Positions 2,411-64,000 of a DNA stretch of 64,000 bases are shown piece by piece. Every line of letters starts with the position of its first letter. Position 1 is the first letter of the stretch. The DNA lies in IMG/VR virus record IMGVR_UViG_3300022917_000008, positions 32,001 through 96,000 of that record; one strand, written 5' to 3'. The stretch comes from a virus (Duplodnaviria > Caudoviricetes). The notes under the pieces are model-generated. The model worked only from the letters and a program-made list of their open reading frames with translations, did not search any database and was not told where the DNA came from. A program made the position numbers and the translations under genes.

Positions 2411-3446
2411 AAAGCTTGTTAAACACTCTCTCTCTCAATCTATTCGTAATACCTAGGGAGCTGTAAGCCCTTACCTTCTCCCCAAGTAGCGTTCCTGCAT
2501 AGGTTGATGTAGGATTACGCAACATTGATTTGATAGCATTGAACCACTCATCTGGTGTGTTGCATAGAGTCACGCCTGCAGTGCCCTTGTAAAAAGACAC
2601 TGAATATGGTTCTACATTTGATGCTATTATAGGAATGCATTTACATCCTGCTTCCAATATCTTTAGATCAGACTTGTGGGCATTGAATGTGGAATCTTCC
2701 AAGGGTGCTAAGGAAACATCAGCATAGGTGTAACACTCCATGTATGAGGCTACAGGTCTAATTGGGAACACTTCATAGTTACCTGCAGGCTTTATTATCT
2801 TCAGCATCTTTTCAGATACATTGTCAATCCTACCTGTTCCAAACTGCTGGTTATACCCTGCTAGTATGATTGTACCCTTAGCCCTGAACTCAGCATCACT
2901 ACCTAACTTCTTAAAGACACTTGCTATGGTCTTCAAGTCGTGAAAGTGTGAGCTTCCCCCTGTATACATGAACCTAACTTTAGTGTCTGGAATCCTGCTT
3001 AGGTTGAACTGTCCACTGTTGTATGGCAATCCGTTAGGAATCACATACACATTCTTGTTAAGTGCCTCAACAGCTACCTTTAACCTGTCATTTGTTACAA
3101 TAACAGCATCAGCTATTGATATGCACCTTTGAATCTGTTCATGTGTCTTATTCCTTGCCCATACTGCAGCCATTTCATGATGGGGATAAAGCACCCAATG
3201 GTCATCCACATCAACTACGATCTTGAATCCAAATTCCTCCCTCTTTTTTAATAATGCATCAATAGAGAATGTTGGTACTCTATTGAACCACACTATGTTA
3301 GCCCATCTAAGTCTGTCATCAGTTGGAGTATGCTGTTGTGTCCATGTAAATACACTCAGGTTCATGTTCCCCATGTATGTTGCTGGTAGTAACACCCTAT
3401 GGTAGGAACATCCAATCTCTTCATGGTGGTTTGCTATTATATTCAT
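2403..3446 (-). CDS. Glycosyltransferase, GT-B (GT4-like)
   Basis: VVDVDDHW, VIPNG, YTGGSSH..D, APLEDSTFNAHKSDLKILEAG, IIASNVEPY motifs. Confidence 0.85.
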   Translation of the reverse strand: MNIIANHHEEIGCSYHRVLLPATYMGNMNLSVFTWTQQHTPTDDRLRWANIVWFNRVPTFSIDALLKKREEFGFKIVVDVDDHWVLYPHHEMAAVWARNKTHEQIQRCISIADAVIVTNDRLKVAVEALNKNVYVIPNGLPYNSGQFNLSRIPDTKVRFMYTGGSSHFHDLKTIASVFKKLGSDAEFRAKGTIILAGYNQQFGTGRIDNVSEKMLKIIKPAGNYEVFPIRPVASYMECYTYADVSLAPLEDSTFNAHKSDLKILEAGCKCIPIIASNVEPYSVSFYKGTAGVTLCNTPDEWFNAIKSMLRNPTSTYAGTLLGEKVRAYSSLGITNRLRERVFNKLYE

Positions 3447-3528
3447 GGTAATTAGTCAAAGTCACGCCAATCCCCTTCTGGTTTACTCCAGAAGAGAAGT
3501 AATAGAAATAAGCCAATTAGTAGACAGA

Positions 3529-4314
3529 TCATCTCTTCTTTATTGTTAGCATTGTGTATGGTAATAGCCACTCACGTACCTTACGTAGTAGTATATCCAT
3601 ACATATGCCAGTTAACAAAATCAGTAATTGAATAGCCCACACATAGTCGAACTTGAAGTACTTGTTCTGATCACTAATAATCACACCAATACCTCCATCA
3701 CTCTTGCATAGGTTCTCCACCATTGCTATCATCATCCAAGCCATAGCAAAGTTTTGCCTTATAGCCTCAAGCACTTCCCCTAGTTTACCTAATATGATCA
3801 CTTCCCACACTACCCTCCATTCTGAGAACCTTAGTGTTCTGGCATAGTTTAGCTCGTCTTGTGTAGTCCCACTTATTATATTTAGTATAGAAGTCATGAA
3901 AAACACACTTATGCCAAACACCAATAAGTAGACCTTCTGGGAATCCACGTCTCCCCCTGCTATCTTTAGGAACAAGAATGTTAATCCAACGGTTGGTAAG
4001 AACCTTAGCTTTGTTCCTAGTAATGCTAGTGAGGTGAAGAGTGGTAGAACTGATGCATAGCAAAGTACGAGGCTTACAAGGGCTGCATAAAACATTGCTT
4101 GAGTACATAGTCCAATTGATTTAAGAAACTCTCTAAACACTCCTTTATGAAGTATCAGATCAACTAGGGCCCTAGCTATTTCTAAAGGTCTTGGGAACAG
4201 CGTATTGTTAGTGAAATCCCACAATAGCATCACCACTAATAGCTGGCAGGCCACTAGCAGGATTCCTTCCTTTCTGTTCAGTGATGCATTGGGTGTTATT
4301 AATTTTTTGTACAC
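3529..4314 (-). CDS. ABC transporter permease (NitT/TauT/SsuC-like)
   Basis: Several TM segments; EAA-like loop YARTLRFSEWRVVWEVI; W....VE......GGIG motif. Confidence 0.85.
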   Translation of the reverse strand: MYKKLITPNASLNRKEGILLVACQLLVVMLLWDFTNNTLFPRPLEIARALVDLILHKGVFREFLKSIGLCTQAMFYAALVSLVLCYASVLPLFTSLALLGTKLRFLPTVGLTFLFLKIAGGDVDSQKVYLLVFGISVFFMTSILNIISGTTQDELNYARTLRFSEWRVVWEVIILGKLGEVLEAIRQNFAMAWMMIAMVENLCKSDGGIGVIISDQNKYFKFDYVWAIQLLILLTGICMDILLRKVREWLLPYTMLTIKKR

Positions 4315-4485: not shown

Positions 4486-4707
4486 TTACTTTACATTGAG
4501 AAGAAACAGCTCAAACATTTCCCTAGCTACTTTTTGGTTATCCATCTGAGTTCTCATCTCACTCATACACACCTGCACACTTAGGTCTGGGTGGTACACC
4601 TTCACTCCTCTTGGATAAGTGTTGACTTGTTGTCCACCATATGGTCTGTAAGGCCATACTTCCCACTTAAGCTCACTAAGGATTTTGTCAATCTCTTCTC
4701 TTGTCAT
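4486..4707 (-). CDS. Stand-alone class I release factor GGQ (RF-1) domain protein
   Basis: GGQQVNT..GVKVYHP..VQVCMSEMRTQMDNQKVA aligns by eye with the RF consensus GGQHVNK..AVRITH..IVV.CQ.ERSQ..NK..A. Confidence 0.7.
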   Translation of the reverse strand: MTREEIDKILSELKWEVWPYRPYGGQQVNTYPRGVKVYHPDLSVQVCMSEMRTQMDNQKVAREMFELFLLNVK

Positions 4708-23828: not shown

Positions 23829-23910
23829 TGTATGTTGTTTTTTGTTTGGCTTAATAAAGGAGGTCTTACATAGACATGCAAGGCCTGTAATTTATACCCT
23901 TAAACTAAAA

Positions 23911-24315
23911 GTGGAGGTGAGGGGAGTTGAACCCCTGTCCAACTTCAGTATCAATGTGTAGGAGTTTATATGCTTATCTGTGTTTGTCTTCTACAGTAGA
24001 ATAGTCAATTCACTTATCGCGTAGCACTGGGCAGAATTGACAATCACCACACTACTTTAGGTAGTGACTCTTTTGCTTTAGCTTATTAGGCAGCTATAGC
24101 TACACCTGTGTAAAGGCTTCTTACAGCCCCTTTGCTTCTGCTGTCACCAGCTTTGGCTACACTTGCTTTCAGCATAAATGCTGATTTACCTACTTTATTA
24201 GCAGATATTGTTCCGTCTCATTTGTTAGGTACATTACTGTACTTTAGGCCCTCATGACGCTTGGGCCTGCATAACTACCTATCAATACACAAAGCTGTCT
24301 AAACCTGGCACCCCC
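23911..24315 (-). ncRNA. ssrA: tmRNA
   Basis: 5' GGGGGTGCCAGGTTTAGAC and 3' GACAGGGGTTCAACTCCCCTCACCTCCAC give a G3-U70 Ala acceptor; internal frame ends ...VAIAA-TAA-TAA. Confidence 0.9.
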
Positions 24316-41700: not shown

Positions 41701-43009
41701 GGCTAACCACATCTCATTCCACACCTTCAATTGCTCCATGTGTGTACTATTGGCTGGTAATGACTTGTACTTCATATGATTGAGGTTTAATTGGTTAAGT
41801 GGTTGTACTGTTGGGGCTCATGCCTCTGGCATTTCGCCTGTTAGTCAGGTATCTGTTTCAAATGGCCTGTTCCTTGTGGATACTCATCAGCCAGCTCACT
41901 GAGTGATGTACCTAATAGTCTTATTAATTGACTATCTGAACCATTTATCACCTCTGTTATGTTGGACACAATGGCCTCAGCTAGTGTAGTATTAAATCCT
42001 TTTGATACTAGTATTCTGATTAGGTCAATATCTGCTTGTGTGGCCATAGAACTGAGTATTTAGTTATGTGATCAATTAGTATGAGGAATATGATGAAGTA
42101 CGGATGACTTGTAGATGTGATGTGGTGTTGATGCAGATCAAATAAACACTCATAATCAATGAGTTATACATCAGATGACTGTGTTTCACGTGGAACATAG
42201 CACAATAATCATAAGAGCTTGGTATATTTTCTCTCTGAGTTGTGAGATAAGAGAAAAATTACACCAAGAAATAGGGTCAATGACCTATTCTGTGATGTAA
42301 TTAACTAACATTCAGTGATACACTGAGAATACGAGACCAGAATTGGCCTTAGTTGTTAGACTGCTAAGGCAAACAATGCAGTGCCTTGAGGCATTAGCCT
42401 GATCATGTTGGCTGTCTTACTGTCAACCCCTTCGAATTCCAGGCTTGACATGTTCAGGAACTCACCACTCTTGGAAGGTGTGAGAACTGCCTTGGCAATG
42501 ACTGGCTTTCCAACAGGAATGTGAGTTGGAATGTTAGTGATTGCGCTCTCCAAAGGGAAGAATGTACCAAGGTCAGTGACTACAATCTTAGTCTTCCTGC
42601 CATCAGTGGTGCTCTTCCAGCCTCCAATGGATAATACCTGAATCTCAACAGTCTCAGACTTGGAATTCTTGCTTGCTTCGAGGTTCTTAGCAATGAGTTG
42701 CTCTACAAGGCTAAGTGGTTTTGCTGCTGGTGTGTTGTTCTGTTCCATGATAAATGAAATTTAGATGTAAATAAAGTGATTCCAAACACCACATGGGATT
42801 TGATCTCACAGTATAGGGGGTACCCCCAACTCCAGATTCTGCATGGGGTTGGTGATGGGGAAGGTACTTACATCTCTACGTACTATAAACTTGGTACCAT
42901 ACAGGTACTTACACTCGTGTATACCAATTAGAACAAGGGTGGGGGTATCTTATATACAACCAAACATAGGGGGTTATTTATTTGGAAGTACCAACTAGGG
43001 GGTGTATAT

Positions 43010-44077
43010 TTGTGTATAAACAAATCAACAAGTATGAACAACCCAAATGACACATTAGAGTCTGCAGCTATTGACCAGATAAAAGGGGCAAACCAAAAGG
43101 CCTTAGCAGGTAAGGTAGTAGACAGTGAACAGCCAGTAACTCCACAGAAGCCTATGTCAATAGAGCAGTACACACAGGCACTAAAGAAGGAGCATGAGGT
43201 AGCCAGGCTTAGGGCAGGCATAGCAAAGTTCATGTTTGAAGAGAACATGGCTATGGTACAACTCAATCAGCTAAGGGCTGGACAACACATGGTGCAGCAA
43301 GCACAGATGCCTGATAATCAACCAACTGAGGAAATCCCACAAACTGAAGACAATGGAGATCAAGGATAATCAATACAAGGAAGCACCATCAGGTCCTCCT
43401 GTGTTTCTAGCCCCAGCTGATGCTCCTGACAGGGATGCATTAGAGGCTTATAGGCATGGGTTAATGGAGAGGGTATGTAACCTTGATCCTGAGATTGGAC
43501 TGACTATTAGGAAGGACCTAATAGAGTTTGATGAGCAGCAGACAGCAGTATGGAGCTTGGATAGGATTCAGGATCAGCCTACTGATTGTTTGAGGGATTT
43601 GATAGTGAGGGTAGAGAACACAGAAGACATTCTTAAGGAAGACCCAAGACTACTGTAATGGAGCATTTACATGAACCTGAGATAGACCCTCTGGATATAG
43701 ATAGGCCTGGATACTATACACCCAGGATAGAAGAATTATTCTTCAGTTGTGAAGTAGATGTGTATGAAGGAGACAAGTGGATGTCCTATATCATAGATGA
43801 GGAGTTTGATCTGAACAACATATCAAGCTTTAGTCTAAGGATGAAATACTTACAGGCTAAGGATGTGATGGAACTAGGGTTTGCAAGAGTAATGCCTAAC
43901 ACTCCTATGTATCAAAGAGGGTCTTACACTATTACTACATACAGGCTACTTGATCCAACTTATAGCAGAGTGAAGATCAGTCAGAATGGTGTGACAGTGT
44001 TTGAGGGTCATGTGAAGAACAAGTCAGAGTTAAGAAGGATTCTGATACTTAATGAAATAAATTTTGCTGATAACTAA
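43010..44077 (+). other. Three hypothetical genes opening the plus-strand block (43010-43369, 43353-43658, 43658-44077)
   Basis: Overlapping ORFs downstream of TATATTTG near 43005. Confidence 0.7.
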
Positions 44078-47176: not shown

Positions 47177-47246
47177 GGGCTAGATGCCAATGGCAGGTCA
47201 ACTCCCTTGCAAGGAGATTGTTTGGGTTCGACTCCCACTATGTCCA
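47177..47246 (+). tRNA. tRNA-Ala (TGC), irregular acceptor stem
   Basis: CTCC-CTTGCAA-GGAG; G3-U70 present; TGGG-TTCGACT-CCCA. Confidence 0.75.
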
Positions 47247-50912: not shown

Positions 50913-50936
50913 GACTGCACTATATTTGTATTACAT

Positions 50937-51115
50937 GCGGGGGATACTTAGAGAGCCCTGTTCTCTTATAACCCTTTAATACAGCCATAAAAGCTGTCCC
51001 CCGTTCCATGGAGAGGTGCTTCTAAGCTTTAGGTTGGTGTGATCCCAACTCTCTCTGCAAATGGGTAGAAATAGCATAGAGCTGTCAGTTGGGTGTAAGC
51101 CCCACCTACCCACCA
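50937..51115 (+). ncRNA. Three tandem truncated tRNA-like units
   Basis: 50937-51008 GCGGGGG/CCCCCGT-TCCA; 51010-51059 GGAGAG/CTCTCT with a GGTTGG/CCAACT hairpin; 51062-51115 TGGGTAG/CTACCCA-CCA. Confidence 0.6.
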
Positions 51116-51116
51116 T

Positions 51117-51189
51117 GCCTTCCTAGCTCAATTGATAGAGCGTCCATCTCTAAAATGGAAAGATGTGGGTTTGAGTCCCACGGATCGCA
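51117..51189 (+). tRNA. Amber suppressor-type tRNA (anticodon CTA)
   Basis: TCCAT-CTCTAAA-ATGGA; normal D arm and T stem; acceptor GCCTTCC/GGATCGC has two mismatches. Confidence 0.8.
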
Positions 51190-51204
51190 CTTAAACTAAA
51201 CACA

Positions 51205-51567
51205 ATGGCTTAGATTACATCAACATCCAGATTGATAACTATAGTAAGGAGAGACCTTAGTCATGGTTATCAGACAGCACAGACAGGTCATGCAATAGCA
51301 GAATGGGCTTATAACAATCCCAGGACCTTTAGAAGGTGGAGAAAAGAAAGTGGGTACTTAATATGTCTTTCAGTAAGAAACCTAGCAGAGCTAGAGGCAT
51401 TCAACAGAAAGTTATATGACAACAAGATAAAGTACACAGCATTTTATGAACCTGACATTGGAGAGTTTACAGCAATAGCAATAACTCCTTCAACTAAGGC
51501 AGACCAGTTAACTAAGCATCTACAGCTAGCCAATGTAAAGGCTGGCACTAAGGACAAACACAAATGA
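51205..51567 (+). CDS. Pth2-like peptidyl-tRNA hydrolase with in-frame TAG at codon 3
   Basis: IVRRDLSHG...AQTGHA and FYEPDIGEFTAIAI motifs; ATG-GCT-TAG at 51205 is in frame with the ORF called from TTG 51232. Confidence 0.75.
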
Positions 51568-51635
51568 AGCAATTATCCTCATATTATCTCCTAAGTTCCC
51601 TGTTGAATAGACAGGCTGAGATAGTATTGAGTTAA
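51564..51635 (+). CDS. Leader peptide 2 (MKQLSSYYLLSSLLNRQAEIVLS), putative attenuator
   Basis: Codons 4-14 are all Leu, Ser or Tyr; ATGA overlap with the Pth2 stop. Confidence 0.85.
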   Translation: MKQLSSYYLLSSLLNRQAEIVLS

Positions 51636-51660: not shown

Positions 51661-51696
51661 AGCCCTCAGCCTAAAAACTGGGGGCTTTTTGTTTTT
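51661..51696 (+). terminator. Intrinsic terminator of attenuator 2
   Basis: AGCCCTCAG-CCTAAAAA-CTGGGGGCT then TTTTGTTTTT. Confidence 0.85.
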
Positions 51697-52988: not shown

Positions 52989-53061
52989 GGTGCACAAGCT
53001 AATCTGGTGAAAGCACTAGACTGAAAATCTAGGGAGCTTGGATCAAAACCAAGGTGTACCG
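52989..53061 (+). tRNA. tRNA-Phe (GAA)
   Basis: CTAGA-CTGAAAA-TCTAG; GGTGCAC/GTGTACC. Confidence 0.9.
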
Positions 53062-56137: not shown

Positions 56138-56857
56138 ATGAAGTTTATTGAAAGTACACACAAGTACATTGACGAGGAAGAGAAAGAATATGCCCCAGTT
56201 ACATCTCTACTGAAGAGTTTTCAGGAGAAGGTGGATTGGGATGCAGTAGCAACCAAGAAAGCTAAGAAGGATGGCACAACTAAGGAGGCCTTACTTGCTC
56301 AATGGGCAGACAAGAGAGATAGGGCAGCAGAGAGGGGTACAGCTTACCATAAGCAGAAGGAAGAGGAGTTACTAGGCTATCCCAATGTTGTTGGATACCA
56401 TACAGATCATAGTGGGATTAAGTCTGATGCTGACATGAAGTTAGAGGAAGGCCTGATCTATGTGGAGAAGATGATATGGTCCAAGAAGTATAAGGTGTGT
56501 GGTACAGCAGACTTGGTTGAAGTAGTCAATGGAAAGATCAATATTAAAGACTACAAGACAAATGAAAAGTTGGATTTCGAGTCATGGAAACACCCAAGAA
56601 ATGGATCAAAAAGGCTCCTCTATCCAGTTCAACACCTGGATGACTGCAATTTCAACCTATACCAGCTTCAGGTTAACTGCTATATGTATATGCTACTCCA
56701 GCACAATAGGCACCTTAAGATGGGAGAGATGGAAATCCTCCACGTAGTGTTTGATGAGAACAAGCAGCACAAGGAAACAAGAGTATACCCAGCTATGAAC
56801 TTCCAGAGAGATGTGAAGAACATGTTGGAACAACATCTAAAAACCAGGCATGCTTAG
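56138..56857 (+). CDS. PD-(D/E)XK exonuclease-like protein
   Basis: RGTAYH, CGTADLV, IKDYKTN, YQLQVNCY. Confidence 0.85.
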   Translation: MKFIESTHKYIDEEEKEYAPVTSLLKSFQEKVDWDAVATKKAKKDGTTKEALLAQWADKRDRAAERGTAYHKQKEEELLGYPNVVGYHTDHSGIKSDADMKLEEGLIYVEKMIWSKKYKVCGTADLVEVVNGKINIKDYKTNEKLDFESWKHPRNGSKRLLYPVQHLDDCNFNLYQLQVNCYMYMLLQHNRHLKMGEMEILHVVFDENKQHKETRVYPAMNFQRDVKNMLEQHLKTRHA

Positions 56858-57356
56858 TATAAGAATATTTGAGGCAGTAGATGGGAAACTAGTGATCACT
56901 GATCAATGTCTGAGGATACCCCAGTTGAAAGCTGTGTATGATAGTCAGAAAGACCCTATACCCGCTTTCAATTACATAGACTGGATGACAGCCCCAGATA
57001 GTCCCTATTCAAGATTACCTGAAGAGGAGAAGCTACAAATGATCTCTGAGGATGCAGGAGGTGACTTTGAGGTGGATGATGAACTGATAACAGCTGCCAT
57101 AGACAAGCTCAATGCTTTATATGTAACTCCCACAAAGAGGTACTATGAAGCTGTGAAGAAGTCTCTGGATATAACTAGTGAGCAGTTATCCAACATTACC
57201 CAGATCACATATGGTAAGGATGGTAATGCAGAGATGATAGACAAGATGCAGATGAATGCAGGCAAGAAGATTGAAGCATTCAAGAAGCTAGAGAAGATAA
57301 CTGAGGAGGAGATAAAGGTTGTCCTGCGTGGTAAAGCGCAAAGTGGCATGTACTAA
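56850..57356 (+). CDS. Hypothetical protein directly upstream of the terminase
   Basis: 168-aa ORF tightly packed between the nuclease and terminase genes. Confidence 0.7.
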   Translation: MLSIRIFEAVDGKLVITDQCLRIPQLKAVYDSQKDPIPAFNYIDWMTAPDSPYSRLPEEEKLQMISEDAGGDFEVDDELITAAIDKLNALYVTPTKRYYEAVKKSLDITSEQLSNITQITYGKDGNAEMIDKMQMNAGKKIEAFKKLEKITEEEIKVVLRGKAQSGMY

Positions 57357-57358
57357 GT

Positions 57359-59521
57359 ATGTATGAATATCCATTAGAGGTAAAAACCTATACCAAAGAG
57401 ACTGATGCATGGTCTTCTACTACCTTCAGTACTAAGCAGGAGCACATAGAGTTTGTTAGGAACTGTGTAAAGCTACCTGGGGAGTACAGGCTGAAAGGTA
57501 CAAAGAAATGGACTGAGCAGTACACTAACTTCAAAAAGGAAGGTCTGTACACTCCACATGTTCCTAACTCTCGTCAATGGGAGAAGTACTGGCAGGAGGA
57601 GATACATAAGGTCAAGCATGGTGTAATCATAGATGGATGGTACATACCTGGCTTCTACTACTTTTATCTGAACTTCATGGAGATATTCGTGAAGGAGAAG
57701 AGAACTGTACTAGGGCCATCAGTGTGGGATTCTGACTATCACTTCATGATGTACATTATGAGGTGTATACTGGAAGGGCATCATGCAGTTGTAGTTAAGA
57801 CCAGACAAAGAGGATACTCATACAAGATTATGGCCATATTATACTGGTCATATTGCTGGTTCCAGGGAGCAGTGAACACACTAGGGGCATCAGACAAGTC
57901 TTATGTGCAGAAGACATGGGGCTATGTAGAGTCATTCAGGAACTTCATTAACACCAAAACTCCTTGGCTGAGGGGGCCACAAATCCCAAAAGCATTGGAA
58001 TGGGCTGAGAGGAAGCTGGATGAGAATGGTAACTATGTGGGTAATGACTCAATTCTAAGGGGCATATCCTTCCAACAATCACCAACTAAGGGTGTAGGTG
58101 GATACCAATCATTCTTCTTCTATGAGGAAGCTGGTGTAGCTCCAAGCATGTTAGAGACTATAGAGTACATGCTACCTGCCTTAAGAGCAGGTAGAGAAGT
58201 AACAGGTACTATTATAGTCTCAGGCTCTGTAGGTGACCTTGAGGATTGTCAGGACCTAAAGACCCTATTTACTGATCCAGAGAAGTATGGCTTCCTAGGT
58301 GTACCCAATATCTGGGATGACAAACCAGATAGGACCACATGTGGGTTCTTTGTACCAGATAGTTGGTCCCTAGTTGGATTCATAGATGCTGATGGCAATT
58401 CCTTAGTTGCAGAAGCTGAAAGGGATATTAGAGCAGCTAGGGAAAAGGACAAGGAGAGTTTAAGGCCAGAAAAGTACCAATTAAGGGTGTCACAGAATCC
58501 TCTTAGTCCTGAAGAAGCATTTGCCTTCAGAAAGAGTTCTTACTTCCCTCAATGGTTAGTACAGAGACAAAAGGACAGACTAGCTGTAGAAAAGCCTAAA
58601 GACAAGCCTGTAGTACTGTTTGAGGATGATAATGGAGCAGTAAAGTTCAGGTTTGCAGATGAGAAGGACCCACTTCCAATTGAGAACTGGCCTCTCAAAG
58701 ATGCTCAGGATAAAAGGGGATGTGTAGTTATTAGTGAGTTTCCTGGGGATACACCTGATCCATTACTGTATTTTGCTGGGGTTGACCCTGTAGCAACTGA
58801 TGTTACTACCACTTCAGAGTCACTATTCTCAGTTACCATCTTCAAGAACCTCATAGAAACTAAGGTAGAGGATGATGAGGGTAATATAAAGATCAAACTA
58901 TCAGGTTTCAGGCCTGTAGCTAGGTATGTAGGTAGGATGGAAGATATCCCTAGTACCAATAAACAGGGAGAGATGTTGATTAGAATGTACAATGCAAGGG
59001 CTAATGTTGAGTCTAATGTACCTAACTTCATCAACCATATGCAACAGAAGGGTCTGCAGAGACACTTATTCTCAAAGAAGGAGATTGGATTCCTTGAAGA
59101 TATGAAGTTCAATGAGAATGTGCACAAGCAATATGGTACACATATGACTCCCAATGTCAAATCTTACATCTTACAGAACATCAAGGACTATATAACAGAG
59201 GAGTTGGACCACATCAGGAAGGAAAATGGGGAGGTAGTTAAGACTATCTATGGGATTGAGAGGATAACTGACCTGGGATTGTTGGAGGAACTAAAGGAAT
59301 ACAGAGATGGAGTCAATACTGACAGGCTTATTTCATTTGGTCTGGCACTATCTGTGGCAAAACACTATGCTGTGAATGGTGCCCTAGTTAGGAAAGATGA
59401 AACTAAGAAGAAAGATGAGGTAATGATGCCGCACAAAAGGTCATTCTTCAAGTCACTTGATCAGAACCTTAACTATTTGCCTGGATTAAAGCCCAGGTCT
59501 TTTTTCAAACACTTAGGCTAA
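57359..59521 (+). CDS. terL: Terminase large subunit
   Basis: Walker A-like KTRQRGYSY, Walker B FFYEEAG, nuclease FAGVDP, NVESN, NTDRL. Confidence 0.9.
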   Translation: MYEYPLEVKTYTKETDAWSSTTFSTKQEHIEFVRNCVKLPGEYRLKGTKKWTEQYTNFKKEGLYTPHVPNSRQWEKYWQEEIHKVKHGVIIDGWYIPGFYYFYLNFMEIFVKEKRTVLGPSVWDSDYHFMMYIMRCILEGHHAVVVKTRQRGYSYKIMAILYWSYCWFQGAVNTLGASDKSYVQKTWGYVESFRNFINTKTPWLRGPQIPKALEWAERKLDENGNYVGNDSILRGISFQQSPTKGVGGYQSFFFYEEAGVAPSMLETIEYMLPALRAGREVTGTIIVSGSVGDLEDCQDLKTLFTDPEKYGFLGVPNIWDDKPDRTTCGFFVPDSWSLVGFIDADGNSLVAEAERDIRAAREKDKESLRPEKYQLRVSQNPLSPEEAFAFRKSSYFPQWLVQRQKDRLAVEKPKDKPVVLFEDDNGAVKFRFADEKDPLPIENWPLKDAQDKRGCVVISEFPGDTPDPLLYFAGVDPVATDVTTTSESLFSVTIFKNLIETKVEDDEGNIKIKLSGFRPVARYVGRMEDIPSTNKQGEMLIRMYNARANVESNVPNFINHMQQKGLQRHLFSKKEIGFLEDMKFNENVHKQYGTHMTPNVKSYILQNIKDYITEELDHIRKENGEVVKTIYGIERITDLGLLEELKEYRDGVNTDRLISFGLALSVAKHYAVNGALVRKDETKKKDEVMMPHKRSFFKSLDQNLNYLPGLKPRSFFKHLG

Positions 59522-62308
59522 ATGGCTAATTCAAAGAAAACAAAGAAGGGTGCAGTAGTATTAACTGCCAGAGACCTACTCAATGGGTATGTAGCTGGGG
59601 GATTAGACTACAACATATACAATATGACTCCTCTGCAGATGGTATCAGCAGATGAGAAGGATGAGGATTGGAAGAAATGGAACCTGGATTGGCTTGAAAG
59701 AGCAGGTATAAGACAGTTAATGAGGGAAAGTAGGAGACTGATCAAGAATTACCACCTTGCAAATGGTATCATAGACAAGTTTGACTACATGATAGGTCCA
59801 AACAATGATATGAGTGATCATATTGCAGTGATAGCTGAGGAGAATCAGAACACTATTCCTATCAGATTCTATCCCCTAATACCCAATGTAATCAACACAA
59901 TGGTGTCTGAGCATGCAAAGAGGGACAATAGGATCATTGCTAAGCAAGTGGATGAGCAATACTACAATGAGATGAATGAGCAGAAGATGGGTGATCTAAC
60001 TCAAATCCTTGTAGCTAGAGCTGAACAGAAGCAAATAGAGAGATTCCAGGAGATGGGCATTGACCTAAGTGATCCTGAGATGCAACAACAGGTTCAGCAA
60101 CAGCTGGATACTGCTAAGCAACTAGCTGAATTGGAGGTCAAATACAAGAACTACAGGGGTATAGCAGAGCAATGGGCTAATCATATGATAGCATATGATG
60201 ATGCTAGGTTTGACATGTACAATCTTGACAACTTGGGCTTTAGAGATTCCCTGGTTTGTGATAGAGAGTTCTGGCATATCAGGCTACTGGATGATGATTA
60301 CAAGGTGGAACTATGGAATCCAGTTACTACATTCTATCACAAGAGTCCTGAGACCTATTACATCTCTGAAGGCAACTATGTAGGTAGAATACTACTAATG
60401 TCCATTCCAGATGTAATTGATCTATTTGGGGATAAGATGACTGAGGAACAGATAACAGAGCTAAAGAATGGCTACAGGATCATTAATCACCTTCCCTTAG
60501 TTGATGACGCATATAGAGATCAGTACAACTTCTATACCAACTATGGACAGCCTTATCCGAAGAACATACAGAATGTAACCTGGGGGCAATCCATTGATGG
60601 TAAGTTTGTTAAGAGTATGGGACAACCTACTACTCCTGATAACAATGCATTCAACATGTCATGGCATGATCTAGGTAAGATCACTAGTGACTACTTTAGT
60701 ACACTGGAAGGTCCAGGTATGGTAAGAGTGACTGAGGCCTATTGGAGGTCCCAGGTCAAGGTCTTTAAGTTGACTAGAATAACTAAGGAAGGGGACATCA
60801 TAAAGACTATTGTGGATGAGAATTATATAGTCAGTGAACCACCTGTTTATGACAAGAGTATACACCAAGTAGAGAGTGCAGACAATCTCATTTCAGGAGA
60901 ACATCTGGATGCCACATGGATTAACCAGACGAGGTATGGAGTAAAGATAAATAGTTCCTTAAGCACCTACTACACAAGAAACTACACTAACTTTGATCCA
61001 ATATACATAGGAGGTGATCCTATTCCCTTTGAATTCAAGGGGCAGGGGAACCTCTATGGGTGCAAGTTGCCAGTAGAAGGTAAGATATATAGTGAAAGGA
61101 ACTCCTATTCCAGTAGTATGGTAGATAAGATGAAGAGCTACCAGATTCAATACAACATCTTCAATAACCAAATACTGGAGATGACAGCTGATGAAGTAGG
61201 TAGTGTGTTCATGATAGACCAGAACATGATACCTCGTAACTCGCTGAATGGGGAATGGGGCAAGTACAACTACCCAATGTTCCATCAAGTGATGAAGGAG
61301 TACAACATTGCCCCAGTTGATACAAGTGTTATCAATACTGGTGTAGGTACTAACTTTCAGCACTTCCAGGTAGTGGACCTTACAAAGACACAACAAATAC
61401 TTAGTAGGATACAGCTAGCTGAATGGGCTAAGACACAATGCTATGAAGTAGTAGGAATAACTAAGGAGAGGCAGGGTAATATAGCTGCATCATCATCTGC
61501 AACTGGGGTACAACAAGCAGTGCAGAACAGTTATGCTCAGACAGAGATATACTTTGATCAGCACATGAATGACCTGATGCCTAGAGTTAGACAGATGATG
61601 TTAGACGCTGCTCAATTCATTAGTGCTACTAAGCCTCAAAGTAAGATCACTTACCTGAATAGTGACGACCAGAATGTATTCTTTGAGATCGAAGGGTACA
61701 GACTACTTATGGCTGACTTCAGGGTGTATGCAAGGAGCACAGCTGATATTAAGGCTACTGTAGAGCAACTAAGGAAACTGGCAGTGGAGAACAATACTGC
61801 AGGTGGTTCCCTATATGAGATAGCACAGATGTTAACTATGCAGAGTCCAGCTGAGATCATGTCTAAACTGAAGGAAGCAGATGAGAAGAGACAACAACAG
61901 GCACAAGCTCAGAATGATCATGAGATGATGCTACAACAACAACAGCAACAGTTCCTTGAGAAAGAAGAAGAGAAGAAGGGTGCAAGACAGGATTACTGGG
62001 AAGCTAAGAAGCTTGAAACAGAGATACTTGTGGCTCAGATTAGGGCATCACAGAGTAAATCCAATGATGTCAATGGTAATGGTGTACCTGATCCTCTTGA
62101 GGCTCTGGATATACTTGAACAGCAGAAAGTCAATGCTGCAGCTATTCTGAACAACCAACAGAAGTTGGACCTGGATGAGAAGCAACACAATGACAATATC
62201 AACCTTCAAAGGGAGAAGTTGCAGGTTGAAAGAGACAAGATGGCATCAGATCAGAAGATTGAGGCCATGAAAGCCAAGGCACAGAAGAATAAGCCAAAGG
62301 CTAAATAA
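59522..62308 (+). CDS. Portal protein (crAss-like)
   Basis: 928 aa directly after TerL; FYPLIPNVIN, VGITKERQG, Q-rich coiled coil and DVNGNGVPD near the C-terminus. Confidence 0.85.
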   Translation: MANSKKTKKGAVVLTARDLLNGYVAGGLDYNIYNMTPLQMVSADEKDEDWKKWNLDWLERAGIRQLMRESRRLIKNYHLANGIIDKFDYMIGPNNDMSDHIAVIAEENQNTIPIRFYPLIPNVINTMVSEHAKRDNRIIAKQVDEQYYNEMNEQKMGDLTQILVARAEQKQIERFQEMGIDLSDPEMQQQVQQQLDTAKQLAELEVKYKNYRGIAEQWANHMIAYDDARFDMYNLDNLGFRDSLVCDREFWHIRLLDDDYKVELWNPVTTFYHKSPETYYISEGNYVGRILLMSIPDVIDLFGDKMTEEQITELKNGYRIINHLPLVDDAYRDQYNFYTNYGQPYPKNIQNVTWGQSIDGKFVKSMGQPTTPDNNAFNMSWHDLGKITSDYFSTLEGPGMVRVTEAYWRSQVKVFKLTRITKEGDIIKTIVDENYIVSEPPVYDKSIHQVESADNLISGEHLDATWINQTRYGVKINSSLSTYYTRNYTNFDPIYIGGDPIPFEFKGQGNLYGCKLPVEGKIYSERNSYSSSMVDKMKSYQIQYNIFNNQILEMTADEVGSVFMIDQNMIPRNSLNGEWGKYNYPMFHQVMKEYNIAPVDTSVINTGVGTNFQHFQVVDLTKTQQILSRIQLAEWAKTQCYEVVGITKERQGNIAASSSATGVQQAVQNSYAQTEIYFDQHMNDLMPRVRQMMLDAAQFISATKPQSKITYLNSDDQNVFFEIEGYRLLMADFRVYARSTADIKATVEQLRKLAVENNTAGGSLYEIAQMLTMQSPAEIMSKLKEADEKRQQQAQAQNDHEMMLQQQQQQFLEKEEEKKGARQDYWEAKKLETEILVAQIRASQSKSNDVNGNGVPDPLEALDILEQQKVNAAAILNNQQKLDLDEKQHNDNINLQREKLQVERDKMASDQKIEAMKAKAQKNKPKAK

Positions 62309-62409
62309 CTATGTGATCACCAGAATTAGGCCAAAATAACTTTACAGATTTGGAATTGATCTAACTATTCAATACAATTATACTGTAGAACTCTAAAAAC
62401 CAAATAGAT

Positions 62410-63636
62410 ATGCCAGAGATTTTAACTGACGAGCAGGCAGCTGCTATATGGTCAGGACAAACAACGAGTCTACTAGGGCTTGAGCCAGAGAAGAAAGTGG
62501 ATACTCCACCACCACCTGTTACAAAGCAAGAGGAGCCTCCTAAGGAACCTGTAACAACAGTAGTAAAGGATGAAGACCTTGCTAATGTGTTCCATGAGGA
62601 TGAAGAGGAAGAAGTGGAGGAACAAGAAACCCCACCTGCAACCCCTGCAAATGCTCCTCCTGCAGAGAAGAAGCCAGGGAGAAAGGCTTCAGATTTAGTA
62701 ACTGGGGTTAACCAGATGATTGAAGAAGGCCTACTCCTTGCAGCAGATGATGGACAAGGGGGTATAGTAGAGATCAAAACTATTGAAGATGCCAAAAAGC
62801 TCATTAAGTCAAACCTGGAACACAGACAGGAACAGGATGAGGAACAGTGGTGGGAGTCAAAAAAGAAAGCCTACAGTCCACAAGTACAGGCAGTACTGCA
62901 TTATGCAGACCAAGGTGCCCAGAGTGCTAGTGAAGTGATAGAGCTGCTAGGTGCAATCAGGGAAGTAGAAGAAGCTGCTGAGATTGATATCAAGACCCCA
63001 GCTGGAGCTGAGAAGGCTGTCAGAGAGACATATAGGTCCAAAGGATTCAAGGATGCTTATATAGACAAGCAGATAAACATACTCAAGGACCTGGGAGGAA
63101 GTAGACTCCAGGAAGAAGCTGCAGATTTATATCCTGAGCTTTTAGCCTCAAAACAGGCCCTAGTTGAGAAGAGTATGACAGAAAAGGAACAGAGAAGACA
63201 AGAGGCTGAAGAAGCAAGTAAGGTCTATGTTTCTACAATAAGAAAGACCCTTGACAAAGATGTTATTGGGGCTGTAAAGCTAACCAGAGAGGACAAGGCT
63301 AAGTTGTATGAAGCAATCACATTGCCTAAATACCAGTCCCTTAATGGATCAAAGACCAATCTCTTTGTGAAGACACTGGAAGAACTCCAGTTTGGCAATA
63401 ATGCCAACTATGATCATTACATGAATGTGGTACAGTTTGCTATAGACCCTCAAGGGTTCATAGATAAGTTGAAGACCTCAGTTACTAATACAGTGACTGA
63501 AGAGACCTTCAAGAAGCTGAAGACAGCTAAGGCAACATCTGCTACCACAAACAATGATGATGCAAACAACAGAACACAAGTAGGCAGAACAAATAAAACA
63601 CTCCCTAGTAAAGGATTTGTAAACCCCTACTCCTAA
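62410..63636 (+). CDS. Probable capsid scaffold/assembly protein
   Basis: Acidic Pro-rich N-terminus; position between portal and capsid genes. Confidence 0.6.
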   Translation: MPEILTDEQAAAIWSGQTTSLLGLEPEKKVDTPPPPVTKQEEPPKEPVTTVVKDEDLANVFHEDEEEEVEEQETPPATPANAPPAEKKPGRKASDLVTGVNQMIEEGLLLAADDGQGGIVEIKTIEDAKKLIKSNLEHRQEQDEEQWWESKKKAYSPQVQAVLHYADQGAQSASEVIELLGAIREVEEAAEIDIKTPAGAEKAVRETYRSKGFKDAYIDKQINILKDLGGSRLQEEAADLYPELLASKQALVEKSMTEKEQRRQEAEEASKVYVSTIRKTLDKDVIGAVKLTREDKAKLYEAITLPKYQSLNGSKTNLFVKTLEELQFGNNANYDHYMNVVQFAIDPQGFIDKLKTSVTNTVTEETFKKLKTAKATSATTNNDDANNRTQVGRTNKTLPSKGFVNPYS

Positions 63637-63660
63637 TTAGATTAAATCCCCTTATAAGAT

Positions 63661-64000
63661 ATGAGTACACCAGTAATTAATAATGGTATATTCTACAGAC
63701 AGACACAGTTCGACATGAGGTCCCACATGGCTAAGAACTATCTGCCATTCATGAATGTAGATAAGGTCACTGACCTTGGTCCTGTAGAGTATTGGGCAAT
63801 GACTAGAAAGTCAGAGATGCCATTATATAAGATGTCTAGCTTTGGAGGTAAGAACATTGTTGAGATTGATGGCAATGTAGCTAGATTCCAAGTCCCAGTG
63901 TCAATGGATGATACTGTTGAAATAGTAGCAGATATTACTACTGTTGACAAGCCTGGACTTGATGGAATGAAGTTTGAAATCCTTGTGTCTACAGACAGAT
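63661..64000 (+). CDS. Major capsid protein, N-terminal part (runs off the right edge)
   Basis: MSTPVINNGIFYRQTQFDMRSH...DLGPVEYWAM...MPLYKMSSFGGKN; gene order TerL-portal-scaffold-MCP. Confidence 0.75.
   Translation, partial: MSTPVINNGIFYRQTQFDMRSHMAKNYLPFMNVDKVTDLGPVEYWAMTRKSEMPLYKMSSFGGKNIVEIDGNVARFQVPVSMDDTVEIVADITTVDKPGLDGMKFEILVSTDR

What the first reader, a model, noticed from the sequence alone, without database searches (positions are those of the whole stretch)
51117..51567. Amber tRNA directly upstream of a peptidyl-tRNA hydrolase gene that starts ATG-GCT-TAG
SEEN: a CUA-anticodon tRNA ends 15 nt before an ATG in an A-rich context (TTAAACTAAACACA-ATG). Codon 3 is TAG and the frame continues into a Pth2-like domain. 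The long genes in the window are intact in the standard code, so this is local rather than genome-wide recoding. The tRNA acceptor stem has C-C and T-T mismatches. ESTABLISHED: start-sense-stop minigenes cause peptidyl-tRNA drop-off, the substrate of Pth. INFERENCE: Pth2 is made only when suppression outcompetes RF1, which could sense release-factor status or act as a timing switch.
Basis: partly seen in the sequence, partly recalled or inferred. Interest (0 to 1): 0.8.

Follow-up and report, generated by a model that had tools for sequence, protein, structure and literature searches.

The report
Suppressor-tRNA-gated phage Pth2 gene
A crAss-like phage that otherwise uses the normal genetic code has the stop codon UAG as codon 3 of a small tRNA-hydrolase-like gene, directly behind its own UAG-reading tRNA; 40 diverged phages, some lab-grown, keep this pairing, so the enzyme is probably made only when that tRNA overrides the stop.

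Summary
A CUA-anticodon tRNA (51117-51189) ends 15 nt before ATG 51205. The reading frame runs ATG-GCT-TAG and continues into a Pth2-fold protein.

The 155.7-kb genome uses the standard code. No other gene is interrupted by TAG, and 27 ORFs end in TAG.

- All 10 close relatives (66-78% protein identity) keep both the tRNA-CUA and the early TAG.
- The TTG "start" is CTG or TTA in 6 of those 10.
- An independent contig repeats the base calls.

The pairing extends much further. Of 45 distinct Pth2-like loci, 40 carry a start codon, usually 1-2 sense codons, then TAG (never TAA or TGA). These include Tenacibaculum phage pT24, cluster C mycobacteriophages and huge phages. A same-strand tRNA-CUA lies within 3 kb in 29 of the 40, and in none of the 5 loci without TAG (p = 0.004).

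Best reading (confidence about 0.7): translation of the Pth2-like enzyme depends on the phage suppressor tRNA. Its purpose, the inserted amino acid and tRNA charging are all untested.

I found no paper describing this. The scan itself has reported the same module on other genomes several times.

The parts
50921..50928 (+). Promoter-like Bacteroidota -7 box (TATATTTG, form TAnnTTTG) just after the upstream gene's stop, with TTTG about 21 nt upstream. It is the likely start of the transcription unit.
   Evidence: Motif scan. The same gtatatttgta box sits at the equivalent place in L001, L002, L005 and L006 and in front of pT24's gene. That it acts as a promoter is inferred from my own knowledge of Bacteroides promoters.
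51010..51115 (+). Conserved structured leader RNA between the promoter and the tRNA. It has a GGTGCTTCTAAGCTTTAGG...GGTGTGATCC element (51010-51055) and a tRNA-like acceptor/T-arm minihelix ending ACCA (51063-51115).
   Evidence: Read from the sequence. The first element recurs in L001, L002, L005 and L006. No Rfam match. Function unknown; listed because it lies in the same unit.
51117..51189 (+). tRNA with anticodon CUA (amber suppressor). The cloverleaf is canonical with A73, no encoded CCA, and C3-C70 and U4-U69 mismatches.
   Evidence: ARAGORN. Rfam RF00005 55.2 bits. In 10 relatives, 17 of 21 pairs show compensatory changes and the anticodon is invariant. Structures.
51190..51204 (+). 15-nt A-rich spacer without a Shine-Dalgarno sequence (cttaaactaaacaca). 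It resembles the leaders of this phage's other genes.
   Evidence: Sequence. Upstream regions of 130 ORFs show the same A-rich, SD-less leaders.
51205..51567 (+). Pth2-like gene of 120 codons, counting the TAG at codon 3.
   Evidence: Pfam PTH2 40.2 bits. PDB Pth2 chains match by profile, E=5e-8. The AlphaFold model (pLDDT 84.6) matches only Pth2 structures, TM 0.69-0.76. It is the only PTH2 copy in the genome.
51211..51213 (+). The in-frame amber codon (the gate), followed by A (TAG-ATT).
   Evidence: An early TAG is conserved in 40 of 45 distinct loci, with a purine at +4 in 39 of 40.
51564..51635 (+). 23-codon Leu/Ser/Tyr-rich small ORF whose ATG overlaps the pth2 stop (ATGA).
   Evidence: Read from the sequence. 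Lead from earlier notes e1-5759911 and e1-5759925. Translational coupling to pth2 is inferred only.
51661..51696 (+). Intrinsic-terminator-like hairpin plus T tract, 2 nt before tRNA-Leu (51699). It is the first + strand terminator after the promoter.

Best explanation
This is a two-part translational gate carried by a standard-code phage.

**Proposed mechanism**
1. One transcript starts at the TAnnTTTG box. It carries the tRNA-CUA, a 15-nt A-rich spacer and the Pth2-like ORF.
2. Host enzymes process the tRNA, add CCA and charge it. The phage has no Gln/Glu-type or Lys/Asp/Asn-type synthetase.
3. Ribosomes start at ATG 51205, add Ala and meet UAG-A at codon 3.
4. If RF1 wins, only a dipeptide is released. 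If charged tRNA-CUA wins, the 120-residue Pth2-fold protein is made.

The amount of enzyme therefore follows the ratio of active phage suppressor tRNA to RF1. This is an AND gate of mRNA and tRNA from one promoter. Placing the stop at codon 2-4 makes failure cheap, because no truncated protein is produced.

**Shown versus inferred**
- Shown: the anatomy, its conservation, the tRNA's structural constraint and the Pth2 fold.
- Inferred: co-transcription, charging, read-through, and that the enzyme hydrolyses peptidyl- or N-blocked aminoacyl-tRNA.

**Likely role (inferred).** The gene belongs to a phage translation-rescue kit that travels with large tRNA arrays. This phage also has a tmRNA and a 73-aa GGQ protein. 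The enzyme would be made only once the phage's own tRNA supply is working.
For: **Close relatives**
- 10 of 10 distinct close relatives carry a tRNA-CUA 14-76 nt upstream and ATG plus 1-2 codons plus TAG plus AT[TC].
- The 'Q' that some database proteins show at this column is only the gene caller's code 15.
- The Leu codon proposed as the TTG start is TTG in 4, CTG in 5 and TTA in 1. Six relatives therefore have no ATG/GTG/TTG before strand 1.
- The model puts strand 1 at residues 7-12 after the TAG, so the later starts some gene callers chose would delete it.
- The codons between TAG and strand 1 change synonymously: TCC/TCA/AGT, AGA/AGG, ATT/ATC.

**The tRNA**
- 17 of 21 pairs show compensatory changes, and CTA is invariant.

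**Wider survey**
- 40 of 45 distinct loci have the early TAG, never TAA or TGA. TAG accounts for only 14% of stops in this genome.
- 29 of the 40 have a tRNA-CUA within 3 kb, always on the same strand. None of the 5 loci without TAG has one, including one with 14 tRNAs (Fisher p=0.0036).
- A 385-kb genome with no tRNA-CUA nearby has one 128 kb away.
- The module occurs in cultured standard-code phages: pT24, whose annotated CDS is cut back to an internal ATG, Bxz1 and ScoobyDoobyDoo.

**Context and transcription unit**
- The gate's context is TAG followed by a purine in 39 of 40. Genuine TAG stops in this genome are mostly TAGT, 14 of 27.
- All 33 late-block ORFs of 100 aa or more end in TAA (p=6e-7).
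- No terminator lies between the promoter box and the pth2 stop.
Against: - Nothing here is experimental. Expression, charging and the inserted amino acid are unknown, and the tRNA resembles no isotype clearly.
- This genome's tRNA has two adjacent acceptor-stem mismatches.
- TAG ends 27 ORFs in this phage, and presumably many host genes, so strong suppression should be costly.
- The codon after TAG is nearly always a near-cognate start: ATT 25, ATC 4, ATA 1, GTN 7. Termination followed by re-initiation is therefore not excluded.
- In cluster C mycobacteriophages the Shine-Dalgarno spacing fits the GTG after the TAG rather than the ATG/GTG before it.
- The window and 3 relatives do have TTG at the first strand.
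- 11 of the 40 TAG loci have no tRNA-CUA within 3 kb. One complete 430-kb genome has none that ARAGORN recognises.
- The lysine held to be catalytic in archaeal Pth2 aligns with an invariant Tyr, so the substrate may differ.
Confidence: 0.7

Rival explanations
1. Mini-uORF with re-initiation. ATG-X-TAG is a 2-4-codon upstream ORF that really terminates. Ribosomes then restart at the adjacent AUU/AUC/AUA/GUN codon, or at TTG 51232 in this genome. This gives low constitutive Pth2 without any read-through, and the tRNA-CUA at most modulates it.
For: - The codon after TAG is a near-cognate start in 37 of 40 loci.
- In Bxz1 and ScoobyDoobyDoo the Shine-Dalgarno spacing fits the GTG right after TAG, which is the annotated start.
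- The window, L001, L002 and L008 have TTG at the first strand.
Against: - The stop is TAG in 40 of 40 loci, although TAA is the commonest stop (63% in this genome). Re-initiation would not care which stop is used.
- tRNA-CUA co-occurs on the same strand (29 of 40 against 0 of 5).
- AUC and AUA are very poor starts (own knowledge).
- Three loci have ACA, AGC or CTG after the TAG.
- TTG is absent in 6 of 10 close relatives.
Confidence: 0.13
2. Tolerated recoding without a gating role. The suppressor tRNA serves another purpose, such as global read-through of host or phage TAG stops, host takeover, or replacing tRNAs destroyed by a defence. The TAG in pth2 would then be a neutral sense-to-stop change, harmless in a dispensable N-terminal tail. 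This matches the first step proposed on the road to code 15.
For: - Suppressor tRNAs occur in standard-code relatives of recoded phages (Borges et al. preprint).
- The N-terminal tail is variable and has low pLDDT.
- The late block avoids TAG stops.
- One huge phage (L018) has a second in-frame TAG in the gene.
Against: - A neutral TAG should drift. Instead it holds the same place in 40 loci, down to 31% protein identity and across phages of Bacteroidota and Actinobacteria.
- It is the only interrupted gene in this 155.7-kb genome.
- Tail residues around it vary freely while TAG does not.
Confidence: 0.1
3. Artefact or dead gene. The TAG would be a sequencing error or a nonsense mutation, or the tRNA a pseudogene.
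For: Two acceptor-stem mismatches in this genome's tRNA.
Against: - An identical sequence occurs in a second assembly record.
- The TAG is conserved in 40 loci.
- The protein is under clear purifying selection, with a mean column identity of 69% and invariant Q, H and EPD residues.
- The tRNA family shows compensatory changes.
- L008 shares the mismatch positions.
Confidence: 0.02

Closest known systems
Stop-codon recoding in phages with phage-encoded suppressor tRNAs (TAG reassigned, 'code 15': crAss-like and Lak phages; Borges et al. preprint 10.1101/2021.08.26.457843; Peters et al. PMC9523058)
   Same: A phage of a standard-code Bacteroidota-type host carries a tRNA-CUA and an in-frame TAG that must be read for a full-length protein. 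Recoding has been proposed as a way to regulate gene expression. This phage's terminase is 27-30% identical to Crassvirales terminases.
   Different: In this phage exactly one gene is affected, and at codon 3. That gene is a tRNA-metabolism gene beside the tRNA, not a lysis or structural gene. TAG remains a genuine stop for 27 ORFs. The same single-gene gate recurs in phages of Actinobacteria with ordinary code.
prfB (RF2) autoregulation through an in-frame UGA (own knowledge)
   Same: A translation-factor gene carries an early in-frame stop codon, so its output depends on competition at that stop.
   Different: prfB needs a +1 frameshift, has no dedicated tRNA and senses its own product. In this phage the frame is unchanged, a dedicated suppressor tRNA is encoded next door, and the product is not known to act on UAG decoding.
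Archaeal/eukaryotic peptidyl-tRNA hydrolase 2 (PF01981; PDB 2zv3, 3erj, 1xty, 1wn2, 1q7s)
   Same: Full-length match by profile and by predicted fold. The AQ..HA-like Q and H, an acidic EPD motif and a following Thr are conserved.
   Different: The GKGK loop is 2 residues shorter, and the lysine reported as essential in the Sulfolobus enzyme (own knowledge) aligns with an invariant Tyr. Activity is untested. PHROGs files the phage family (phrog_1866) as of unknown function.
PTH2-like gene as a core gene of cluster C mycobacteriophage tRNA arrays (Morgado and Vicente 2018, PMC5966550), and orphan CUA tRNAs of standard-code jumbo phages (XacN1, PMC5852040)
   Same: The same protein family sits inside phage tRNA arrays together with a tmRNA. 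XacN1's authors report CUA tRNAs for which they could find no target.
   Different: Neither paper notes the TAG in front of the gene or links it to the CUA tRNA. XacN1's own pth gene was not retrieved by my searches and was not examined.
Lambda bar minigenes and Pth (own knowledge)
   Same: A 2-3-codon ORF ending in a stop, in connection with peptidyl-tRNA hydrolase.
   Different: bar toxicity depends on a particular last sense codon and its tRNA. In this module that codon varies freely, the stop is always TAG, and the frame continues into the enzyme.

Membership tests
PTH2 (PF01981) peptidyl-tRNA hydrolase 2 | Sequence match above Pfam's curated cut-off over the whole domain | tested here: met
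   40.2 bits against 23, profile positions 3-114 of 115. Also 39.1 bits in the six-frame search. PDB Pth2 chains match at E=5e-8.
PTH2 (PF01981) peptidyl-tRNA hydrolase 2 | Pth2 alpha/beta fold | tested here: met
   The AlphaFold2 model has pLDDT 84.6. The 12 best Foldseek PDB hits are all Pth2 entries, TM 0.57-0.76, probability 1.00.
PTH2 (PF01981) peptidyl-tRNA hydrolase 2 | Catalytic residues reported for the Sulfolobus enzyme (Lys18 in the GKGK loop, Asp86; own knowledge) | tested here: inconclusive
   The HMM alignment shortens the loop by 2 residues and puts an invariant Tyr at the Lys position. An invariant EPD lies within one residue of the Asp. No residue-level superposition was possible.
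PTH2 (PF01981) peptidyl-tRNA hydrolase 2 | Hydrolysis of peptidyl- or N-acetyl-aminoacyl-tRNA | not testable with these tools
   Needs an enzyme assay or complementation of a pth(ts) strain.
Functional elongator (suppressor) tRNA | Cloverleaf kept by compensatory changes, with an invariant anticodon | tested here: met
   Rfam 55.2 bits. 17 of 21 pairs show double changes in 10 sequences, and the loop is CTCTAAA-like throughout.
Functional elongator (suppressor) tRNA | Fully paired 7-bp acceptor stem | tested here: not met
   Pairs 3-70 (C-C) and 4-69 (U-U) are mismatched in the window, in its duplicate L057 and, as U-U/U-U, in L008. The stem is fully paired in the other 8 relatives.
Functional elongator (suppressor) tRNA | Aminoacylated in vivo, and with which amino acid | not testable with these tools
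   No isotype resemblance above 67% to any phage tRNA. The phage has no Gln/Glu-type or Lys/Asp/Asn-type synthetase.
Code-15 (TAG-recoded) phage | In-frame TAG in many genes, chiefly late genes | tested here: not met
   Only pth2 is interrupted. TAG-joined ORF pairs (25) are no commoner than TGA (33) or TAA (33) pairs and lie antisense or in intergenic DNA.
Code-15 (TAG-recoded) phage | TAG no longer used as a terminator | tested here: not met
   27 of 192 ORFs end in TAG, though none of the 33 late-block ORFs does.
Pyrrolysine system (ARAGORN's label 'tRNA-Pyl') | tRNA-Pyl shape: 6-bp anticodon stem, 3-nt variable loop, tiny D loop (own knowledge) | tested here: not met
   This genome's tRNA has a 5-bp anticodon stem, a 4-5-nt variable loop and an 8-nt D loop; its relatives are mostly alike. 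The label is ARAGORN's default for cta. The pyl genes were not searched.
Bacterial initiator tRNA reading UAG as a start | Unpaired 1-72 and three G-C pairs at the foot of the anticodon stem (own knowledge) | tested here: not met
   1-72 is G-C (C-G in L010 and L018) in all 16 CUA tRNAs drawn. The window's anticodon stem is TCCAT/ATGGA.
prfB-type autoregulatory recoding | Frameshift needed to pass the in-frame stop | tested here: not met
   The Pth2 frame continues in frame 0 directly after the TAG in all 40 loci.

The most novel reading that the evidence does not exclude
The tRNA-CUA and the amber-gated Pth2-like gene form a self-contained interlock that travels between phages of different phyla together with large tRNA arrays. 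The suppressor tRNA's main, or only, coding target is this gene. It acts as a reporter that the phage's own tRNA supply (processing, CCA addition, charging) is running. Only then is an enzyme with an altered active site (Tyr in place of Lys) released. That enzyme would act on host aminoacyl- or peptidyl-tRNAs, or on the suppressor tRNA itself as a self-limiting loop. This would explain the orphan amber-suppressor tRNAs of standard-code phages.
Probability: 0.15. Interest if true: 0.9.

Novelty: new variant of a known kind. Interest (0 to 1): 0.75.

Why it matters
Standard-code phages, including well-studied cluster C mycobacteriophages and jumbo phages, carry amber-suppressor tRNAs. At least one published analysis could not find their targets (XacN1, PMC5852040).

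This module supplies a specific, conserved target, and that target is itself a tRNA-metabolism gene. It is a natural single-gene tRNA-operated switch, distinct from genome-wide recoding.

It can be tested directly in cultured systems: M. smegmatis with Bxz1-type phages, and Tenacibaculum with pT24.

It also has a practical side. Gene callers and GenBank records mis-start or truncate this gene. Short contigs get mis-assigned to code 15 because of it.

Tried and rejected
**Alternative readings rejected**
- Genome-wide TAG recoding. ORF lengths and coverage under TAG, TGA or TAA read as sense show no TAG-specific gain.
- Other early or internal TAG gates in this genome. The few hits lie antisense, in the divergent intergenic region 42758-43010, or overlap other genes.
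- 'Gln at the TAG position in homologues'. This is an artefact of code-15 gene calling.
- Pyrrolysine tRNA or an initiator tRNA. The shape does not fit.

**Questions left open**
- tRNA isotype by similarity to the phages' other tRNAs. No consistent nearest isotype.
- A G19-C56 to A19-U56 tertiary covariation. Suggestive in 7 of 10 sequences but not consistent, so not claimed.
- A phage release factor that might bias termination. There is no PCRF domain, only a 73-aa GGQ fragment-like protein.
- tRNA-CUA elsewhere in huge phages with no copy nearby. One was found in a 385-kb genome, none was recognised in a complete 430-kb genome, and three fragments were uninformative.

**Searches that returned nothing useful**
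- Megablast of the region against GenBank phages: no match.
- IMG/VR scans with the window protein or its close alignment: nothing.
- The broad alignment was too diverse to search with.
- Stenotrophomonas phage hits and XacN1's pth gene: not retrieved or examined.

Full report
**1. The observation**

ARAGORN reports a tRNA with anticodon cta at 51117-51190. Rfam's tRNA model gives 55.2 bits at 51117-51189, in the middle of this phage's 25 or so tRNAs.

The sequence then reads:
- a 15-nt A-rich spacer;
- ATG 51205, GCT, TAG 51211-51213, ATT;
- TTG at 51232 and the stop TGA at 51565-51567.

After the TAG the frame matches Pfam PTH2 (40.2 bits against a cut-off of 23). The C3-C70 and U4-U69 acceptor mismatches are there. 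So the description is correct, with ATG at 51205.

**2. The genome**

The window is bases 32001-96000 of a single 155,657-bp virus record, rated complete.
- Genes have no Shine-Dalgarno sequence and have A-rich leaders like the one before ATG 51205.
- A TAnnTTTG box lies at 50921.
- The terminase is 27-30% identical to those of Crassvirales and of Flavobacterium and Cellulophaga phages. This is therefore a distant crAss-like phage of Bacteroidota.

The code is standard:
- ORFs up to 4080 codons are open in table 11, and reading TAG as sense brings no specific gain.
- Stops are TAA 122, TGA 43, TAG 27.
- Searches for other early or internal in-frame TAGs found only antisense or intergenic chance cases.

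pth2 is thus the only TAG-interrupted gene, and the CUA tRNA is the only suppressor among 23 ARAGORN tRNAs.

**3. Close relatives**

A protein search gave 11 relatives. Their contigs are syntenic: glycosyltransferase-like gene, TylF methyltransferase, a 245-aa ORF, then pth2 and tRNA blocks.

In all nine further distinct close relatives (66-78% protein identity):
- a tRNA-CUA lies 14-17 or 69-76 nt upstream;
- the gene begins ATG, one or two variable codons, TAG, ATT or ATC, then I-[TN]-x-x-S-R-L-I-T-V-V-R-R-D.

Three database proteins show Q at the TAG column, but only because their contigs were called in code 15.

Six relatives therefore have no canonical start between the TAG and the first strand. 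The AlphaFold model places that strand at residues 7-12 after the TAG.

Ser, Arg, Leu and Ile codons in this stretch differ synonymously between relatives, as expected for translated sequence.

A second assembly record (L057) is identical over 361 nt, including the TAG and the tRNA mismatches.

**4. The tRNA**

Across the ten tRNAs, 17 of 21 pairs show changes on both sides that keep the pair, while the anticodon loop is fixed. Eight have perfect acceptor stems. The window and L008 are mismatched at the same two pairs.
- The shape is an ordinary class I cloverleaf. It is neither tRNA-Pyl nor an initiator.
- Its isotype cannot be read from similarity.
- The phage has no Gln/Glu-type or Lys/Asp/Asn-type synthetase.

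A host enzyme would have to charge it. The amino acid is unknown. Gln or Lys would be expected only by analogy with E. coli amber suppressors (own knowledge).

**5. Distant relatives**

tblastn against GenBank phages found the family in 216 records: 204 Mycobacterium cluster C phages, where it is annotated 'peptidyl tRNA hydrolase', seven huge uncultured phages, Tenacibaculum phage pT24 and two Stenotrophomonas phages.

| Phage | Start of the gene | tRNA-CUA |
|---|---|---|
| LR756500 | ATG AAG TAG ATT | 1.1 kb downstream |
| LR745206 | ATG AAC AAT TAG ATT | none in the fetched locus |
| LR756502 | ATG AAA AAT TAG ATT | none in the fetched locus |
| LR756504 | ATG ACA TAG ATT | none in the fetched locus |
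| LR756501 | ATG TCG TAG ATT | two, 2.4 kb downstream |
| pT24 | own TAnnTTTG box, then ATG AAA TAG ATA | annotated tRNA-Sup 2.6 kb upstream |
| Bxz1 | GAAGGc ATG TAG GTG | 0.3 kb after the gene's stop |
| ScoobyDoobyDoo | AGGGGc GTG TAG GTG | 0.2 kb after the gene's stop |

In pT24 the GenBank CDS is cut back to an internal ATG.

An IMG/VR scan with the huge-phage subgroup and a metagenome scan added 37 loci.

After removing duplicates there are 45 distinct loci:
- 40 have an early TAG, never TAA or TGA.
- Usually one or two sense codons lie between the start codon and the TAG (32 of 40).
- 30 of 40 have no ATG/GTG/TTG between the TAG and the first strand.
- 29 of 40 have a tRNA-CUA within 3 kb, always on the same strand.
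- The five loci without TAG have ordinary starts and no tRNA-CUA, one of them amid 14 other tRNAs (Fisher p = 0.0036).

One 385-kb genome with no nearby copy has a tRNA-CUA 128 kb away. A complete 430-kb genome has none that ARAGORN recognises.

**6. The protein**

A profile of the family matches archaeal Pth2 chains end to end (2zv3, E=5e-8). The model (pLDDT 84.6) matches only Pth2 structures.

R, Q, H, W, E-P-D and T are invariant across 14 sequences down to 31% identity. However, the GKGK loop is two residues shorter, and the lysine reported as essential in the Sulfolobus enzyme (own knowledge) aligns with an invariant Tyr. 'Pth2-like' is therefore safe, while the substrate is not established. 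PHROGs lists the family as of unknown function.

**7. How it most likely works**

- No + strand terminator lies between the promoter box at 50921 and the pth2 stop. The first is at 51661-51696, just before tRNA-Leu. The tRNA and mRNA are probably made together.
- Ribosomes starting at ATG 51205 reach UAG-A at codon 3. RF1 would release a dipeptide, while charged tRNA-CUA would allow the 120-residue protein.
- The gate's context is a purine after TAG in 39 of 40 loci. This genome's real TAG stops are mostly TAGT. That fits the known context rules for suppression against termination in E. coli (own knowledge).
- All 33 late-block ORFs end in TAA, against 62 of 106 elsewhere (p=6e-7). Late proteins would therefore be immune to amber read-through, though TGA is avoided there too.
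- The phage also has a genuine tmRNA (75.6 bits) and a 73-aa GGQ protein. The same company (tmRNA, RF-1 domain, Pth) has been noted in mycobacterial tRNA arrays (PMC5966550).

I read the module as an AND gate that ties a tRNA-hydrolase-like enzyme to the activity of the phage's own tRNA system. The purpose beyond that is inference.

**8. Rivals**

- Termination followed by re-initiation at the following AUU or GUN codon is the serious rival. It is strongest for the mycobacteriophages, where the Shine-Dalgarno spacing fits the GTG after the TAG. It does not explain why the stop is always TAG, or why a CUA tRNA travels with it.
- Neutral tolerated recoding does not explain the positional constancy over such divergence.
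- Error or pseudogene is excluded by the comparative data.

**9. What is known**

- Phage stop-codon recoding with suppressor tRNAs is established, including suppressor tRNAs in standard-code relatives.
- XacN1's authors could not find targets for its CUA tRNAs.
- The PTH2-like gene is a known core gene of cluster C tRNA arrays.

Five full-text searches found no paper that links the two or notes the TAG. This scan's own notes describe the same module on several other genomes. Those are unchecked AI notes. My survey was made independently and agrees with them.

Noticed in passing
window 23909-24315 (-): Genuine phage-encoded tmRNA: Rfam RF00023, 75.6 bits, E=1.5e-27. ARAGORN reads the tag peptide as ETEQYLLIK.
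   Followed up: partly
window 4489-4707 (-): 73-aa ORF with a YGGQQVN motif. It matches the RF-1/GGQ peptidyl-hydrolase domain below Pfam's cut-off (28.1 bits against 35) and phrog_20323. It could be a stand-alone ribosome-rescue-type factor. The genome has no PCRF domain.
   Followed up: partly
window 56850-64000 and on to genome base 152700: All 33 ORFs of 100 aa or more in the late, + strand structural block end in TAA. Elsewhere 62 of 106 do (Fisher p=6e-7).
   Followed up: yes
window 51010-51115: Between the promoter box and the tRNA-CUA lie two elements. One (GGTGCTTCTAAGCTTTAGG...GGTGTGATCC) is conserved in the relatives. The other is a tRNA-like acceptor/T-arm minihelix ending ACCA one base before the tRNA. 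They may relate to the 'handle-tagged tRNA mimics' noted elsewhere in this genome.
   Followed up: no
window 52989-53061 and 47178-47246 (+): Rfam finds two further tRNA-like genes (51.5 and 29.8 bits) that ARAGORN did not list.
   Followed up: no
window 51564-51635 (+): A 23-codon Leu/Ser/Tyr-rich ORF starts inside the pth2 stop (ATGA). It precedes the terminator in front of the Leu/Leu/Ser/Tyr tRNA block. If the two are coupled, amber read-through would also feed this putative attenuator.
   Followed up: partly
L017 (Tenacibaculum phage pT24, NC_049383) 2962-3915: pT24's Pth2-like domain is fused to about 200 further residues that contain an HD-like H...HDLGK motif. Pfam gave no hit there. 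The GenBank CDS starts at an internal ATG and so lacks strand 1 and helix 1.
   Followed up: partly
L018 (LR756501) 3094: The 735-kb phage has a second in-frame TAG inside its Pth2-like gene, so it may be recoded more widely.
   Followed up: no
L007 525-527: In this relative the pth2 gene also ends in TAG. Read-through would add 3 residues before TAA, and a code-15 gene caller did extend it.
   Followed up: no
L044 2974: One IMG/VR homologue has TGA, not TAG, in front of the domain and no in-frame start. An ATG lies one base out of frame (ttATGAagc). This could be a frameshift, an error or a different arrangement.
   Followed up: no
L038 1766-1868; L030 1985-2088; G005:C1:45217-45343: The huge-phage relatives carry tRNA-like genes with 32-36-nt inserts in the anticodon loop about 1 kb upstream of their pth2-like gene. 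One also has a 127-nt tRNA-like gene that begins its anticodon arm TCCAT-CTCTAA, as the window's tRNA-CUA does. Their nature is unresolved.
   Followed up: partly
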